From assembly GCA_028713935.1 (NCBI GenBank), contig JAQTNI010000001.1:30001-62000 (forward strand): a DNA stretch of 32,000 nucleotides. The letters run 5' to 3'. Below, piece after piece: positions 3,939 through 22,421 of this stretch (positions are counted from its first letter, which is position 1; the number at the start of each line of letters is the position of its first letter). The notes under the pieces were generated by a model. It was not told the origin of the DNA. It did not search any database and worked only from the letters and a program-made list of their open reading frames with translations. The stretch is from Candidatus Iainarchaeum sp. GTDB taxonomy: Archaea > Iainarchaeota > Iainarchaeia > Iainarchaeales > GCA-2688035. Position numbers and translations under genes: made by a program.

Positions 3939-4973
3939 TTATTCCATGCTTTGCAAAAGCCCCACTCTTCCCAGTTCCAAAAAATATTCGTTTTCAGGGT
4001 TATTGATTCCTTTTTTGCATTTTGTGTAGGTCGCAAGAATAACATAGATTGCGTGCCCGAGTTTTATGTAAGTTGGCAATGCTTCAAGTTCTTTCTGTGT
4101 TAGCGGAATAATTTTTTGGTATTCTTCCAAAACGATTTCAATGTTTTTTTCAGTTTTGCTTTTGCTTTCCTGCTCAAAAAGCACAGTGCAAGCCATTACC
4201 GCAAGCTCCTGTATTCTTGGATAATAATTTGCACATGCAAAATCAATAAGCCACAATTTTCCGTTTTTATCCTTCATTATGTTTGTTTTTGTCAAATCGC
4301 CATGAACAAAACAATGGGGCAATTTGTTTATTTCAAGTGCTTTTAAATCTTTCACCAATGGAAGAATTTTTTTCAGGTCTTCAGAATCCAGAAATTTTTT
4401 TGCTATTCGGAATTCCTTCAAAAAACTTGTTATTGCCCAATGGTCATAAACAAACTTTGGCTTTATTTTCATGCTGTTTATTATTGCGGCCTGCTTTGCC
4501 AAAAACCTTATTTCCAAATCGGCCAGTTTTTCTTTTGATTCAAACAAAGTTTTGCCTTCAATAAAATCCATTGCAACAAGCCGCAATTTTTTTCCCCTGA
4601 CATTTAAAATCTGCAAATGCCTGTTTTTTGCCTCCAATAATTTTGGAGTGACCACATTGCTTTCCAAGGCCTTTTCCATGATTTTGACATATCTCTTGCA
4701 TTCTTGGAGCGTTCTAAAATCAGCAAAGACTTTGACAAAAAAATTCCCTTTTTTTGTTTGCAGGGCAAAATTAAAATCTTCATAGCCAATTGCAACAAGC
4801 CTGTTTGAAACAAAAGCGCCAAGCCCAAAGCATTTGCAAACAGCTTCAGAAATATCTTCCAATCTGCCTTTGAAGCCAATCCTTTTTTTGAATAAATCCC
4901 CCTCAGCCAAGCCAATCACTTTTTTTATTAGCAATCTGTTTACCAAAGATTCAAGTTCTTTTTCTTTGGGCAA
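3939..4973 (-). CDS. Aminoglycoside/choline-kinase-like (APH family) small-molecule kinase
   Basis: 344-aa ORF. Catalytic loop CFVHGDLTKTNIM followed by LIDFACANY (HxDxxxxN ... D). The TTG start at 4973 lies inside the tRNA-Gly trailer repeat, so the true start is uncertain. Confidence 0.75.
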   Translation of the reverse strand: MPKEKELESLVNRLLIKKVIGLAEGDLFKKRIGFKGRLEDISEAVCKCFGLGAFVSNRLVAIGYEDFNFALQTKKGNFFVKVFADFRTLQECKRYVKIMEKALESNVVTPKLLEAKNRHLQILNVRGKKLRLVAMDFIEGKTLFESKEKLADLEIRFLAKQAAIINSMKIKPKFVYDHWAITSFLKEFRIAKKFLDSEDLKKILPLVKDLKALEINKLPHCFVHGDLTKTNIMKDKNGKLWLIDFACANYYPRIQELAVMACTVLFEQESKSKTEKNIEIVLEEYQKIIPLTQKELEALPTYIKLGHAIYVILATYTKCKKGINNPENEYFLELGRVGLLQSME

Positions 4974-5015
4974 CTTACACTTTCTTTTTCTTTCAAAGAA
5001 AAAGGAAGGGCAGTG
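4953..5015 (-). repeat. Copy A of a ~60-nt direct repeat: tRNA-Gly 3' trailer, ending on the last 2 nt of the tRNA
   Basis: Plus strand aagttctttttctttgggcaacttacactttctttttctttcaaagaaaaaggaagggcagtg aligns with 5082-5140, with only a few indels and mismatches. As RNA it contains a CTTTTTCT/AGAAAAAG hairpin. Confidence 0.8.
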
Positions 5016-5174
5016 CGTCCGCCGGGATTCGAACCCGGGTTACGAGCTCTTTCCTGCTTCAATTTTGTTTATTATTTGTTGAAGTTCTTTCTTTTGGGCA
5101 ACTTACACTTTTCTTTCTTTCAAGAAAGAAAAGGGCAGTGGGAAGCTCGAATCCTACCGCTAGATTACAGACGC
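5014..5174 (-). tRNA. tRNA-Gly(CCC) with a ~90-nt intron at the canonical 37/38 position (exons ~5139-5174 and ~5014-5048)
   Basis: Hand fold. Acceptor GCGTCTG/CGGACGC. D arm ATCT-AGCGGTA-GGAT. Anticodon stem CGAGC/GCTCG with loop TT-CCC-AA. T arm CCGGG-TTCGAAT-CCCGG. Discriminator A. CCA is not encoded. Confidence 0.8.
5082..5140 (-). repeat. Copy B of the ~60-nt direct repeat: first ~57 nt of the tRNA-Gly intron plus the last 2 nt of exon 1
   Basis: Plus strand aagttctttcttttgggcaacttacacttttctttctttcaagaaagaaaagggcagtg. As RNA it contains a CTTTTCTTTC/GAAAGAAAAG hairpin. Confidence 0.8.
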
Positions 5175-17300: not shown

Positions 17301-17358
17301 TTTCACCAAGATTTTAAAAAACCATATCAATAATACTTTTTGAGTTGGGAGCAAGGTG

Positions 17359-17379
17359 GGCATGAACAAGGTTCATGCC
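17359..17379 (+). other. Perfect 9-bp hairpin GGCATGAAC-AAG-GTTCATGCC followed by a T-rich run
   Basis: Read directly. It lies 59 nt after the nnrD stop and upstream of the tRNA-Ser(UGA) region. It could be a terminator or processing signal. Confidence 0.4.
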
Positions 17380-17442
17380 TGCCAAATTTTTACTTCTCCA
17401 AAAGAAGCAATTAAAAACCACTTGATTCCTAATTTTAACACT

Positions 17443-17571
17443 GCAGAGGTGGCAAGGCCTTTCTTTGCCTTGCAAAGAAAGCCCTGGGAAAGAAATACTT
17501 TTTGCCAATGCAAAAAGTGCTTCGCAAAGGAAACCCCTGGGAAAAAATTGCCGCCAATAAAAGAAAATCAT
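17443..17571 (+). repeat. 12-nt copy of the tRNA-Ser(UGA) 5' end (GCAGAGGTGGCA) fused to a 117-nt intron-type hairpin module
   Basis: GCAGAGGTGGCA at 17443-17454 is identical to 17572-17583. The following AGGCCTTTCTTTGCCTTGCAAAGAAAGCCCTGGGAAAGAAAT plus hairpin ACTTTTTGC/GCAAAAAGT matches the modules in both Ser introns. Confidence 0.7.
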
Positions 17572-17765
17572 GCAGAGGTGGCAGAACTTGGTAAATGCGC
17601 CGGCCTTGAGAAGCCTTTCTTTCTAAAGAAAGAAAGCCTTGGGAAAGAAACAGTTTGGCTCTGCCAAACTGTAGTTCGCTTCGCTTACATTAGAAAAAAA
17701 GATTATTATTTTTCAGGCGAGCCGGTGTCCGAAAGGGCGCGTGGGTTCAAATCCCATCCTCTGCG
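17572..17765 (+). tRNA. tRNA-Ser(UGA), class II, with a ~109-nt intron (~17611-17719)
   Basis: Hand fold. Acceptor GCAGAGG/CCTCTGC with discriminator G. Anticodon stem CCGGC/GCCGG with loop CT-TGA-G(A). Long variable arm GTCC-GAAA-GGGC. T arm GTGGG-TTCAAAT-CCCAT. Confidence 0.8.
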
Positions 17766-17777
17766 CAATCTTTTTTT

Positions 17778-22011: not shown

Positions 22012-22085
22012 TCGCCTTTTAATTTTTCCAAAGCCCCAAGCACCTTTTTATTTAAATATTTGCACAACTTATTATTTCAAGCAAT

Positions 22086-22331
22086 GCGGGGGTGGCAGAG
22101 CGGTCTAATGCGCACGCCTGGAAAGGCCTTTTCTTGCAAGCAAGAAAAGCCCTGGGAAAAGAACAATTTGCTTTGCAAATTGGTTGATTCCCCGGTTCTC
22201 CCCAAAGGATAATTTCAGTTAGAAATTTTTTTCTTTGGGGTGGACTGCAGACCTTTCTTTTTATTAAAAAGAAAGGGATATAGAGAGCGTGTTCTCGAAA
22301 GGGAGCGCGAGTTCAAATCTCGTCCCCCGCG
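22086..22331 (+). tRNA. tRNA-Ser(GGA), class II, with a ~162-nt intron (~22124-22285)
   Basis: Hand fold. Acceptor GCGGGGG/CCCCCGC with discriminator G. Anticodon stem CACGC/GCGTG with loop CT-GGA-AA. Variable arm TTCTCGAAAGGGAGC. T arm GCGAG-TTCAAAT-CTCGT. Confidence 0.8.
22311..22331 (+). repeat. att copy 1: the functional 3' end of tRNA-Ser(GGA), GTTCAAATCTCGTCCCCCGCG
   Basis: Exact 21-mer (22 nt counting the following T), shared with 23668-23688 and 25187-25207. Confidence 0.9.
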
Positions 22332-22421
22332 TTAAACGAAAAGTTCAAATCCAATTGAACGGAAAATTCAAAAAAGAAGCTTTTTTATTTTGCTTGGAGC
22401 ATAATTGTTATTGGTGGTATA

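What the first reader, a model, noticed from the sequence alone, without database searches (positions are those of the whole stretch)
17443..17583. 117-nt intron-like insert flanked by a perfect 12-nt duplication of the tRNA-Ser(UGA) 5' end
GCAGAGGTGGCA (tRNA positions 1-12) is present at 17443-17454 and again at 17572-17583, where the intact tRNA begins. The 117 nt in between start with the intron-type module (copy a) and contain a second CCCTGGGAAAAAA motif (17534-17546). I see three readings. (i) A mobile, intron-related element inserted with a 12-bp target duplication that regenerated the tRNA 5' end. (ii) The gene really starts at 17443 and carries an additional non-canonical intron after position 12, so either copy of the 12-mer yields the same mature tRNA. 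(iii) It is a recombination scar between intron copies. Any of these would be informative about how archaeal tRNA introns spread.
Basis: seen in the sequence. Interest (0 to 1): 0.6.

Follow-up and report, generated by a model that had tools for sequence, protein, structure and literature searches.

The report
Mobile hairpin repeat inserted into tRNA-Ser start
A 116-base copy of a short repeat that is common in this tiny archaeon (and fills many of its tRNA introns) was inserted into the start of a serine tRNA gene, duplicating the gene's first 12 bases. A sister genome still has the uninterrupted site, so these intron-type modules move as DNA, and this copy is not an extra intron.

Summary
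GCAGAGGTGGCA occurs at 17443-17454 and 17572-17583. With the preceding T, the direct repeat is 13 nt, spaced 129 nt.

A same-genus genome (G001) has the same upstream gene, hairpin and promoter block running straight into one copy of the 12-mer and the tRNA. A second genus (G004) also lacks the insert. So this is a lineage-specific 129-bp insertion: a 116-nt element plus a 13-nt duplication.

The element belongs to the hairpin/mirror-repeat ("triplex-type") module family that this scan has already described on other DNA. G000 holds about 60 type-A and 50 type-B copies, in tRNA introns, flush against tRNA ends and after stop codons.

Two other G000 copies also have empty sites in relatives, with 37-38-nt duplications. 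tRNA-Leu(UAG) of another genus shows the same layout, duplicating positions 1-12.

The canonical intron (17611-17719) has a perfect bulge-helix-bulge motif. The leader insert has none.

The TTAAAA promoter box lies upstream of the orphan copy, and an RNase P RNA gene is present. The insert is therefore most likely transcribed as a long 5' leader.

The enzymology is unknown: no terminal inverted repeats, variable duplication length, strict polarity, and a segment complementary to the orphan.

The parts
17411..17416 (+). TTAAAA promoter (TATA-like) box, 32 nt upstream of the orphan 12-mer
   Evidence: TTWAAA starts at -40..-30 (mode -33/-32) in 16 of 37 tRNA genes of this genome. The orphan copy has it at -32. 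The intact copy has none within 80 nt. The block is conserved in G001.
17442..17454 (+). Orphan copy of the duplicated target (T + tRNA positions 1-12)
   Evidence: Exact repeat. It is contiguous with the native promoter block, as in the empty site of G001.
17455..17570 (+). Inserted 116-nt element: one full type-A module, a partial second module and a tail
   Evidence: Absent from G001 and G004. nhmmer places 17457-17514 in the type-A family, E = 2e-10.
17459..17495 (+). Module core: hairpin CTTTCTTTGC / GCAAAGAAAG (17459-17468 / 17472-17481), linker CCCTGG, mirror purine tract GAAAGAAA (17488-17495)
   Evidence: Read from the sequence. The same three-tract layout co-varies across the copies listed.
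17497..17518 (+). Second small hairpin of the module (ACTTTTTGC / GCAAAAAGT)
   Evidence: MFE fold of the leader. An equivalent hairpin is present in most type-A copies.
17527..17547 (+). Partial second module (AAGGAAACCCCTGGGAAAAAA). Its A-run ends 25 nt before tRNA +1
   Evidence: Pattern hit with 2 mismatches. The same A-run-to-+1 spacing (25 nt) is seen in the tRNA-Leu(UAG) leader of G017.
17548..17555 (+). TTGCCGCC, complementary to GGTGGCAA at the orphan's end (7 Watson-Crick pairs + 1 G-U)
   Evidence: The leader-alone MFE pairs it with 17448-17455, enclosing the module. Equivalent segments occur in 5 of 6 other tRNA-end insertions.
17571..17583 (+). Second copy of the duplicated target; start of the intact tRNA
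17572..17765 (+). Intact tRNA-Ser(UGA): exon 1 17572-17610, intron 17611-17719, exon 2 17720-17765
   Evidence: Rfam RF00005, 40.5 bits. The BHB scan gives central helix 4/4, outer helix 8 bp and inner helix 2 bp at 17610/17719. The spliced sequence carries the acceptor, anticodon, variable-arm and T-arm helices of a class II tRNA by reading; the ViennaRNA MFE of it shows the acceptor and anticodon helices but not a clean cloverleaf.

Best explanation
The 116-117-nt stretch is a DNA insertion, not part of the tRNA. A copy of the genome's abundant non-coding type-A hairpin/mirror-repeat module, with a partial second module and a short tail, was inserted between positions 12 and 13 of tRNA-Ser(UGA). 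This happened after the G000 lineage split from its congener G001. The event duplicated 13 bp of target (-1 to +12), so a complete tRNA gene was regenerated downstream. An orphan 12-mer stayed attached to the old promoter.

Inferred, not shown: transcription still starts at the old promoter, so the orphan and the element form a 5' leader of about 129 nt. RNase P, whose RNA gene is present, would remove that leader at 17571/17572. The canonical intron is spliced as usual.

Also inferred: the insertion was made by a polar copying process that starts exactly at the module's hairpin end and re-enters the target upstream of the exit point (template switching or a similar replicative route). A fixed-stagger cut-and-paste transposase is unlikely. 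The segment complementary to the orphan may be a footprint of that process, or a clamp that keeps the orphan from competing with the real acceptor stem.
For: Empty site:
- G001 (same genus) has the same upstream gene end, conserved hairpin and promoter block, followed directly by one GCAGAGGTGGCA and the rest of the tRNA. The alignment shows one clean 129-column gap.
- G004 (another genus) also lacks the insert.

Family:
- nhmmer finds 60 type-A and 83 type-B hits in G000 (about 50 type-B loci after merging both-strand hits). They lie in tRNA introns, flush against tRNA ends and after stop codons.
- Copies are also found in 24 of 40 relatives.

Other insertions with duplications and empty sites:
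- C52, type B: 37-nt duplication, present once in G001.
- C30, type B: about 38 nt, present once in G002.
- Further direct repeats of 11-18 nt.

Same architecture elsewhere:
- tRNA-Leu(UAG) of G017: promoter, positions 1-12, AAGCC modules, complement of positions 5-11, spacer, intact tRNA.
- Mirror-image cases at tRNA 3' ends in G017 and G057.

Promoter and processing:
- The TTAAAA box sits at the modal -32 before the orphan copy only.
- RNase P RNA is at C23:18151-18419, 80 bits, full length.

No BHB motif exists for the insert, while the canonical intron scores perfectly.
Against: - No enzyme for the insertion was identified. The genome has one IS5-family transposase with unrelated ends, no reverse transcriptase, no TnpB, and three tyrosine recombinases.
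- No near-identical donor copy exists in G000; the best is about 80-85% identical over 50-65 nt.
- In all tRNA cases the duplication stops 0-5 nt outside the mature tRNA end. Neither a random staggered cut nor a random template switch predicts this.
- In the C30 case the two repeat copies differ mostly at third codon positions (5 of 6, p about 0.02). This hints that one copy could have arrived with the element rather than by local duplication.
- Transcription start, leader removal and the template-switch route are inferences. No RNA data were available.
- G001 and G004 could in principle have lost the insert by precise deletion between the repeats, but that needs two independent losses.
Confidence: 0.8

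Rival explanations
1. Miniature integrative element. The module travelled with its own copy of the tRNA 5' end (an attP-like block) and was integrated by a tyrosine recombinase supplied in trans. On this reading the repeat is an att duplication, not a locally generated target duplication.
For: - The repeat block runs from the crossover point to the tRNA terminus (0-5 nt beyond it) in all eight tRNA cases. This is the classic pattern of tRNA-targeting integrative elements (my own knowledge of Williams 2002).
- The genome has three tyrosine recombinases.
- According to earlier scan notes, the same window holds integrase-less islets bounded by 22-bp copies of the tRNA-Ser(GGA) 3' end.
- In C30 the two repeat copies differ mainly at synonymous sites.
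- In Caldiarchaeum a 1.87-kb element left a tRNA-Thr 5' fragment in the same way (PMC3293823).
Against: - Each insertion has a repeat that exactly matches its own target: five different tRNAs, an ORF 5' end and an ORF 3' end. A site-specific element cannot carry all of these.
- The tail-12-mer-module junction was not found in any genome or metagenome collection searched.
- The element is only 116 nt and has no recognisable arm sites.
- Repeat lengths range from 9 to 38 nt.
Confidence: 0.1
2. Second, non-canonical intron. The gene starts at 17443, and the segment up to the second 12-mer is removed by the splicing endonuclease at equivalent positions in the two repeats.
For: - Any splice register inside the repeat restores the tRNA.
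- The promoter lies upstream of the first copy.
- In the MFE of the whole precursor, the first GCAGAGG pairs with the acceptor 3' strand.
- One relaxed candidate exists at cleavage after 17447 and 17576: a TGCA/TGCA central helix and a 3-bp outer helix.
- DPANN endonucleases of broad specificity are known (PMC3239211, abstract seen).
Against: - The candidate has no inner helix and rests on a palindrome expected by chance in about 1 of 5 such repeats.
- All 15 other registers scanned score at most 2 of 4 in the central helix.
- The parallel tRNA-Leu(UAG) repeat contains no usable self-pairing 4-mer (checked by hand).
- The insert is absent in G001 and G004.
- The mirror-image cases sit antisense to their tRNAs, so they cannot be introns.
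Confidence: 0.06
3. Recombination scar: unequal crossing-over or gene conversion between the intron module and another module copy produced a partial duplication of the gene.
For: The insert and the intron share the module, and repeated modules are natural substrates for ectopic recombination.
Against: - Crossing-over between an upstream module and the intron module would duplicate the promoter and all of exon 1, not 13 nt.
- The empty site in G001 has no upstream module.
- The insert and intron modules are only about 75-80% alike, and their hairpin loops and second hairpins differ.
Confidence: 0.03

Closest known systems
tRNA gene disruption by a mobile element in Caldiarchaeum subterraneum (Sugahara et al. 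2012, PMC3293823)
   Same: A mobile insertion sits in the 5' part of a tRNA gene. It leaves an orphan 5' fragment (positions 1-27 there, 1-12 here) next to the old upstream region and a complete tRNA gene downstream. Filled and empty versions coexist among close relatives.
   Different: That element is 1,868 bp, encodes a putative recombinase and brought a new intron at 24/25. Here the insert is 116 nt and non-coding, belongs to a family of about 110 copies, and brought no new intron.
Intron 'transposition' between tRNA genes in Thermoproteales (Sugahara 2008, Fujishima 2010; cited in the preprint read)
   Same: Related intervening sequences are shared by different tRNA genes of one genome, which implies that intron sequences spread.
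   Different: Those papers infer spread from intron similarity alone. Here the same module family is also seen outside introns, with target duplications and empty sites, which shows movement at the DNA level. This particular copy is not an intron.
MITEs and other small non-autonomous prokaryotic repeats (REP/BIME, RPE)
   Same: Short, non-coding, structured and multi-copy, flanked by a direct repeat of the target, with a filled-versus-empty polymorphism.
   Different: There are no terminal inverted repeats and no fixed duplication length (9-38 nt). One end is exact and the other ragged, orientation is strictly polar, and no matching transposase was found.
Intrastrand-triplex repeats of bacteria (PIT / BoxC / TM-ECO; Holder et al. 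2015, PMC4666352)
   Same: Dispersed repeats built from a hairpin plus a third tract that mirrors one arm. In E. coli they are linked to genome rearrangement (abstract).
   Different: Those are G/C-rich and bacterial, and are not tied to tRNA genes. These are A/T-rich and archaeal (DPANN), and sit in tRNA introns and at gene ends. Triplex formation is untested here.
Integrative elements at tRNA genes (tyrosine-recombinase att duplication)
   Same: A direct repeat of a tRNA gene segment reaches the gene terminus, and the tRNA is regenerated.
   Different: There is no integrase on board and the element is 116 nt. Repeats match many unrelated targets, including ORF ends. The 5' end is targeted instead of the usual 3' half.

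Membership tests
Archaeal BHB (endonuclease-spliced) tRNA intron | A bulge-helix-bulge motif (strict hBHBh' or relaxed) spanning the two splice sites | tested here: not met
   Scan of all 16 registers around the repeat, including those that restore the tRNA. The best is 17447/17576 with central helix 4, outer helix 3 and inner helix 0; all others score at most 2 of 4. Positive control: the canonical intron at 17610/17719 gives 4/8/2.
Archaeal BHB (endonuclease-spliced) tRNA intron | Removal yields a complete, foldable tRNA | tested here: met
   This follows trivially from the repeat. The joined sequence equals the intact gene.
Archaeal BHB (endonuclease-spliced) tRNA intron | Spliced or circular RNA products | not testable with these tools
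   No transcript data were available.
Transposable element / MITE | Direct repeat of the target flanking the element, present once at an empty orthologous site | tested here: met
   13-nt repeat with an empty site in G001. Two further family members have empty sites.
Transposable element / MITE | Dispersed multi-copy family | tested here: met
   60 type-A and about 50 type-B loci in G000. Copies are present in 24 of 40 relatives.
Transposable element / MITE | Terminal inverted repeats | tested here: not met
   The insert starts AGGCCTTTC and ends GAAAATCA. Type-B inserts start CTGCCC and end GGTAAACA plus a variable tail.
Transposable element / MITE | Characteristic, fixed duplication length | tested here: not met
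   Lengths of 9, 11-18, 12, 13, 19-25, 37 and about 38 nt.
Transposable element / MITE | A cognate transposase in the genome | tested here: inconclusive
   Only one IS5-family gene, with unrelated ends. No RVT_1 and no TnpB. The genome is 94% complete.
tRNA-targeting integrative element (att duplication) | The repeat is a tRNA gene block that reaches the gene terminus | tested here: met
   -1 to +12 here; 0-5 nt beyond the terminus in the other tRNA cases.
tRNA-targeting integrative element (att duplication) | A recombinase on the element, or the same att junction recurring elsewhere | tested here: not met
   The 116 nt hold no gene. The junction pattern gave only chance hits in genome and metagenome collections.
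Intrastrand-triplex (PIT/BoxC-type) repeat | A pyrimidine arm, a purine arm and a third purine tract that mirrors the purine arm and co-varies with it | tested here: met
   This copy reads CTTTCTTT / AAAGAAAG / GAAAGAAA. Asymmetric copies keep the mirror order (run lengths 2,4,3 versus 3,4,2 in the Trp intron; 3,5,4 versus 4,5,3 in the Cys intron).
Intrastrand-triplex (PIT/BoxC-type) repeat | Demonstrated triplex formation | not testable with these tools
   Needs CD or NMR spectroscopy, or footprinting.

The most novel reading that the evidence does not exclude
The module family spreads by a so far undescribed, polar, transposase-independent copying process. It starts at the hairpin end, deposits a short segment complementary to the sequence just 5' of the insertion point, and re-enters the target upstream. 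When the same process hits an anticodon loop, it delivers the exon-intron pairing from which a splice-competent bulge-helix-bulge intron can arise. On this reading, leader inserts such as this one are failed or side products of the route by which DPANN tRNA introns are born.
Probability: 0.15. Interest if true: 0.85.

Novelty: new variant of a known kind. Interest (0 to 1): 0.6.

Why it matters
How archaeal tRNA introns arrive is still an open question; a 2026 survey of Asgard tRNA genes tested several routes and concluded that it "remains open".

In this genome, the sequence module that fills most long tRNA introns is caught moving as DNA. There is a dated insertion with an intact empty site in a sister genome, further filled/empty pairs, and the same architecture at several other tRNA genes in two other genera. 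Within the genus, module-bearing introns are also gained or lost: tRNA-Asp(GUC) has one in G001 but not in G000.

This gives a concrete system of many recent events in small genomes in which insertion polarity, duplication length and donor choice can be measured. It also allows a test of whether intron gain is a special case of repeat insertion.

There is a practical point as well. Intron-aware tRNA finders misread such loci: ARAGORN calls this one a tRNA-Glu with a 236-nt intron.

Tried and rejected
- **Default ARAGORN** finds no tRNA in the window. With introns allowed it miscalls 17443-17766 as tRNA-Glu(UUC).
- **Junction searches.** I searched for the filled junction (12-mer plus module start) in 185,579 species genomes and in JGI metagenomes. 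Only chance hits in unrelated coding DNA came back.
- **Empty site for tRNA-Leu(UAG) of G017.** A search of five congeners returned only tRNA-Leu(GAG) genes, so that case has no empty-site proof.
- **Loose pattern search.** The pattern for tRNA positions 1-12 followed by a module start, run over 195 genomes, was too unspecific. It mostly hit coding DNA and tandem modules, and the list was cut at 150 of 333 matches. It did lead to the T-loop cases.
- **De novo promoter motif.** An 8-mer EM search did not converge on a positioned box in this A/T-rich DNA. I replaced it with a simple TTWAAA position count.
- **Longer repeat considered and dropped.** I asked whether the tail is a decayed copy of the promoter, which would mean a longer original duplication. 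Only 12 of 36 positions match, which is chance level (hand alignment).
- **IS5 transposase considered and dropped.** Its inverted repeats are unrelated to the module ends.
- **tRNA-Ala(UGC) comparison.** The G000-versus-G001 pair is not orthologous.

Full report
**1. The observation**

The 12-mer GCAGAGGTGGCA occurs at 17443-17454 and 17572-17583 and nowhere else in the window. The preceding T is shared, so the direct repeat is 13 nt with a spacing of 129 nt.

Rfam places an intact tRNA at 17572-17765. By hand and by a bulge-helix-bulge (BHB) scan, it is tRNA-Ser(UGA) with exon 1 at 17572-17610, a 109-nt intron at 17611-17719 and exon 2 at 17720-17765.

The stretch between the repeats opens with the same module as the intron.

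**2. The organism and the repeat family**

The window is part of a 1.23-Mb, 72-contig genome, G000. Earlier notes of this scan assign it to the DPANN class Iainarchaeia.

With introns allowed, ARAGORN finds about 39 tRNA genes. About 20 of them have long introns of 35-207 nt.

Two related repeat modules fill these introns.
- Type A reads A(A/G)GCC, a pyrimidine arm, a loop, a purine arm, GCC(C/T)TGGG, a purine tract and a small hairpin.
- Type B reads CTGCCC, a pyrimidine arm, a loop, a purine arm, GTGTAAGTTGCCC, a purine tract and a ...TTTGGTAAACA tail.

In both types the third tract mirrors the purine arm and co-varies with it. For example, A-run lengths are 2,4,3 versus 3,4,2 in the Trp intron. 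I reached this independently. The scan had already described it as a triplex-type repeat family of DPANN archaea.

Iterated nhmmer finds 60 type-A hits and about 50 type-B loci in G000. Most are not in tRNA genes. Many type-A copies follow a stop codon directly. Others abut tRNA 3' ends in forward orientation, or tRNA 5' ends in reverse orientation. The family is present in 24 of the 40 relatives searched.

**3. The decisive comparison**

The same-genus genome G001 contains the orthologous locus. It has the same upstream gene end, the same conserved hairpin and the same promoter block (AAGCAATTAAAAACCACTTGATTCC...). That block is followed directly by a single GCAGAGGTGGCA, which continues into the tRNA and its module-bearing intron.

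The three-way alignment shows one clean gap of 129 columns in G001, with well-aligned flanks. G004, from another genus of the family, also goes from its upstream region straight into the tRNA.

The simplest history is one insertion in the G000 lineage of 116 nt of element plus 13 nt of duplicated target.

**4. The same thing happens elsewhere**

A search for exact repeats flanking all module copies in G000 found several cases.

Two type-B copies could be checked against empty sites.
- **C52.** The element sits between two copies of a 37-nt block: the start codon and first 12 codons of a 1293-codon ORF. G001 has that block once.
- **C30.** The element sits between two copies of about 38 nt: the last 11 codons and stop of a gene. 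G002 has it once.

Other copies carry repeats of 11-18 nt.

At tRNA genes I found the same layout repeatedly.
- **tRNA-Leu(UAG) of G017, another genus.** The order is promoter, positions 1-12 (GCGGGAGTCGGA), two type-A modules, a spacer and the intact tRNA.
- **Mirror-image cases at the 3' end.** An orphan copy of positions 54-73 (19-25 nt) lies beyond a module placed antisense to the tRNA. These are tRNA-Ala(GGC) and tRNA-Arg(CCU) of G017, and tRNA-Lys, tRNA-Ser(GGA) and tRNA-Thr (two tandem units) of G057.
- **tRNA-Ala(GGC) of G000.** A 9-nt case.

**5. Regularities that a simple transposon does not explain**

- **Polarity.** In all 10 informative cases the module's hairpin end abuts the orphan fragment exactly. 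The variable tail faces the intact gene. A symmetric staggered cut predicts either orientation.
- **Repeat length.** It varies from 9 to about 38 nt.
- **No terminal inverted repeats.** The inserted segment also varies at the tail end: one and a half modules here, two modules in Leu(UAG), and a module plus a GC hairpin in G057.
- **Outer edge of the repeat.** In the tRNA cases it lies 0-5 nt outside the mature tRNA end.
- **A complementary segment after the module's A-run.** Here 7-10 nt are the reverse complement of the orphan's module-proximal end.
  - Exact matches: 9 nt in Arg (0 of 2000 shuffles), 7 nt in Leu (7 of 2000), 7 nt in Ser(GGA) (30 of 2000), 6 nt in Thr and Lys.
  - Ser(UGA) has 8 bp with one G-U pair (TTGCCGCC, 17548-17555). 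Ala has none.
  - Folding each leader or trailer alone pairs the orphan with this segment, enclosing the module.

The genome offers no obvious enzyme. It has one IS5-family transposase with unrelated ends, no reverse transcriptase, no TnpB and three tyrosine recombinases.

My inference is a polar replicative route, that is, serial template switching. It would enter a donor at the module's hairpin end and return to the target upstream of the exit point. Such a route naturally gives variable duplications, one exact and one ragged junction, and short inverted templated pieces. This is not shown.

The complementary segment could instead be a selected clamp. It is transcribed before the real tRNA, so it could sequester the orphan and stop it from competing for the acceptor 3' strand. 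In the MFE of the whole precursor, the orphan does take that strand.

**6. Is it an extra intron?**

I scanned every splice register that would restore the tRNA for the BHB geometry: outer helix, 3-nt bulge, 4-bp helix, 3-nt bulge, inner helix.

The canonical intron is a perfect positive control at 17610/17719. The leader has one weak candidate, 17447/17576. It is built on the palindrome TGCA, has a 3-bp outer helix and no inner helix. All other registers fail.

A palindromic 4-mer somewhere in a 13-nt repeat, plus a 2-3-bp outer helix, is expected by chance roughly one time in five. The Leu(UAG) repeat has no usable palindrome. Also, the 3'-end cases are antisense to their tRNAs and cannot be introns. 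Together with the absence of the insert in relatives, this makes the intron reading unlikely, at about 6%.

**7. How the gene is probably expressed**

TTWAAA starts at -40 to -30 (mode -33/-32) in 16 of 37 tRNA genes of this genome. The orphan copy has TTAAAA at -32. The intact copy has no such box within 80 nt, only GGGAAAAAATT at -33 to -23.

The promoter block upstream of the orphan is conserved in G001. An archaeal RNase P RNA gene is present (C23:18151-18419, 80 bits over the full model, just under Rfam's cut-off of 84).

So the orphan and the element are most likely transcribed as a leader of about 129 nt that RNase P removes.

One curiosity remains. The A-run of the tail ends 25 nt before +1 here and 25 nt before +1 in Leu(UAG) of G017, which is where native boxes end. 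A weak internal promoter cannot be excluded.

**8. Rivals on mechanism**

An att-type integration, in which the element carries its own copy of the tRNA end, would explain why the repeats stop at tRNA termini. It has a published large-scale analogue in Caldiarchaeum. In C30 the two repeat copies differ mainly at third codon positions (5 of 6, p about 0.02), which fits a copy that evolved as coding DNA elsewhere.

Three points count against it. Every insertion matches its own local target, including two ORF ends. The tail-12-mer-module junction occurs nowhere else in the collections searched. And split by copy against G002, the third-position excess is not significant for the orphan alone.

Unequal crossing-over between modules does not fit the anatomy of the site.

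**9. Comparison with what is known, and verdict**

The closest published case is the Caldiarchaeum tRNA-Thr disruption (PMC3293823). The closest concept is intron transposition in Thermoproteales. The closest structural class is the bacterial intrastrand-triplex repeats (PMC4666352).

None of these describes a 100-nt, non-coding, triplex-type module that is found both in tRNA introns and as dated DNA insertions with target duplications.

I file the finding as a new variant of a known kind: a small non-autonomous mobile repeat inserted into a tRNA gene whose end was regenerated. The insertion reading is solid. Expression and mobility mechanism are inferred.

The scan has already reported the repeat family itself on other DNA. 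This report adds the empty-site proof of DNA-level mobility, the variable long duplications, the polarity and the orphan-complementary segment.

Noticed in passing
window 4960-5174 (-): tRNA-Gly(CCC) (5014-5174) has a type-B module that opens its 90-nt intron. A second type-B copy starts exactly after the discriminator base (4960-5013).
   Followed up: partly
window 22085-22332 (+): tRNA-Ser(GGA) has an intron of about 162 nt that opens with a type-A module and contains a further hairpin module. Rfam at gathering threshold does not report this gene.
   Followed up: partly
G000 C11:18815-18887 versus L123:1500-1664 (G001): tRNA-Asp(GUC) is intronless in G000 but carries an intron of about 90 nt at 37/38 in G001, with a type-B-like three-tract module behind the same promoter block. 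There is no flanking repeat, and nucleotides 37/38 differ (AC versus GA). tRNA-Pro(GGG) likewise has an intron of about 62 nt only in G001 (L110).
   Followed up: partly
G000 C52:6000-6160 (L022): The orphan start (GTG plus 12 codons) reads in frame through the type-B element. It stops at a TGA that overlaps the real ATG (ATGA), making a 42-codon upstream ORF that could couple translation to the displaced gene.
   Followed up: no
window 17341-17385: A hairpin (GGGCATGAAC...GTTCATGCC) between the upstream gene and the tRNA promoter is conserved in G001. It may be a terminator or a small RNA.
   Followed up: no
L026-L041 (G017): G017 carries dozens of near-identical type-A modules, often in tandem arrays of 2-4 modules with different arm sequences. 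They commonly start right after a TAA stop codon, which looks like a recent burst.
   Followed up: partly
L096:1-300 (G057): Behind tRNA-Thr(CGU) there are two identical 91-nt tandem units. Each consists of a module, a T-arm-like hairpin, a GC hairpin and a 19-nt copy of the tRNA 3' end.
   Followed up: no
G000 C27:9143-9619: A tyrosine-recombinase gene lies about 500 nt from tRNA-Cys(GCA), whose 5' flank carries a third module type (TTTCCCAAGGCTTTCGAAAGCG...).
   Followed up: no
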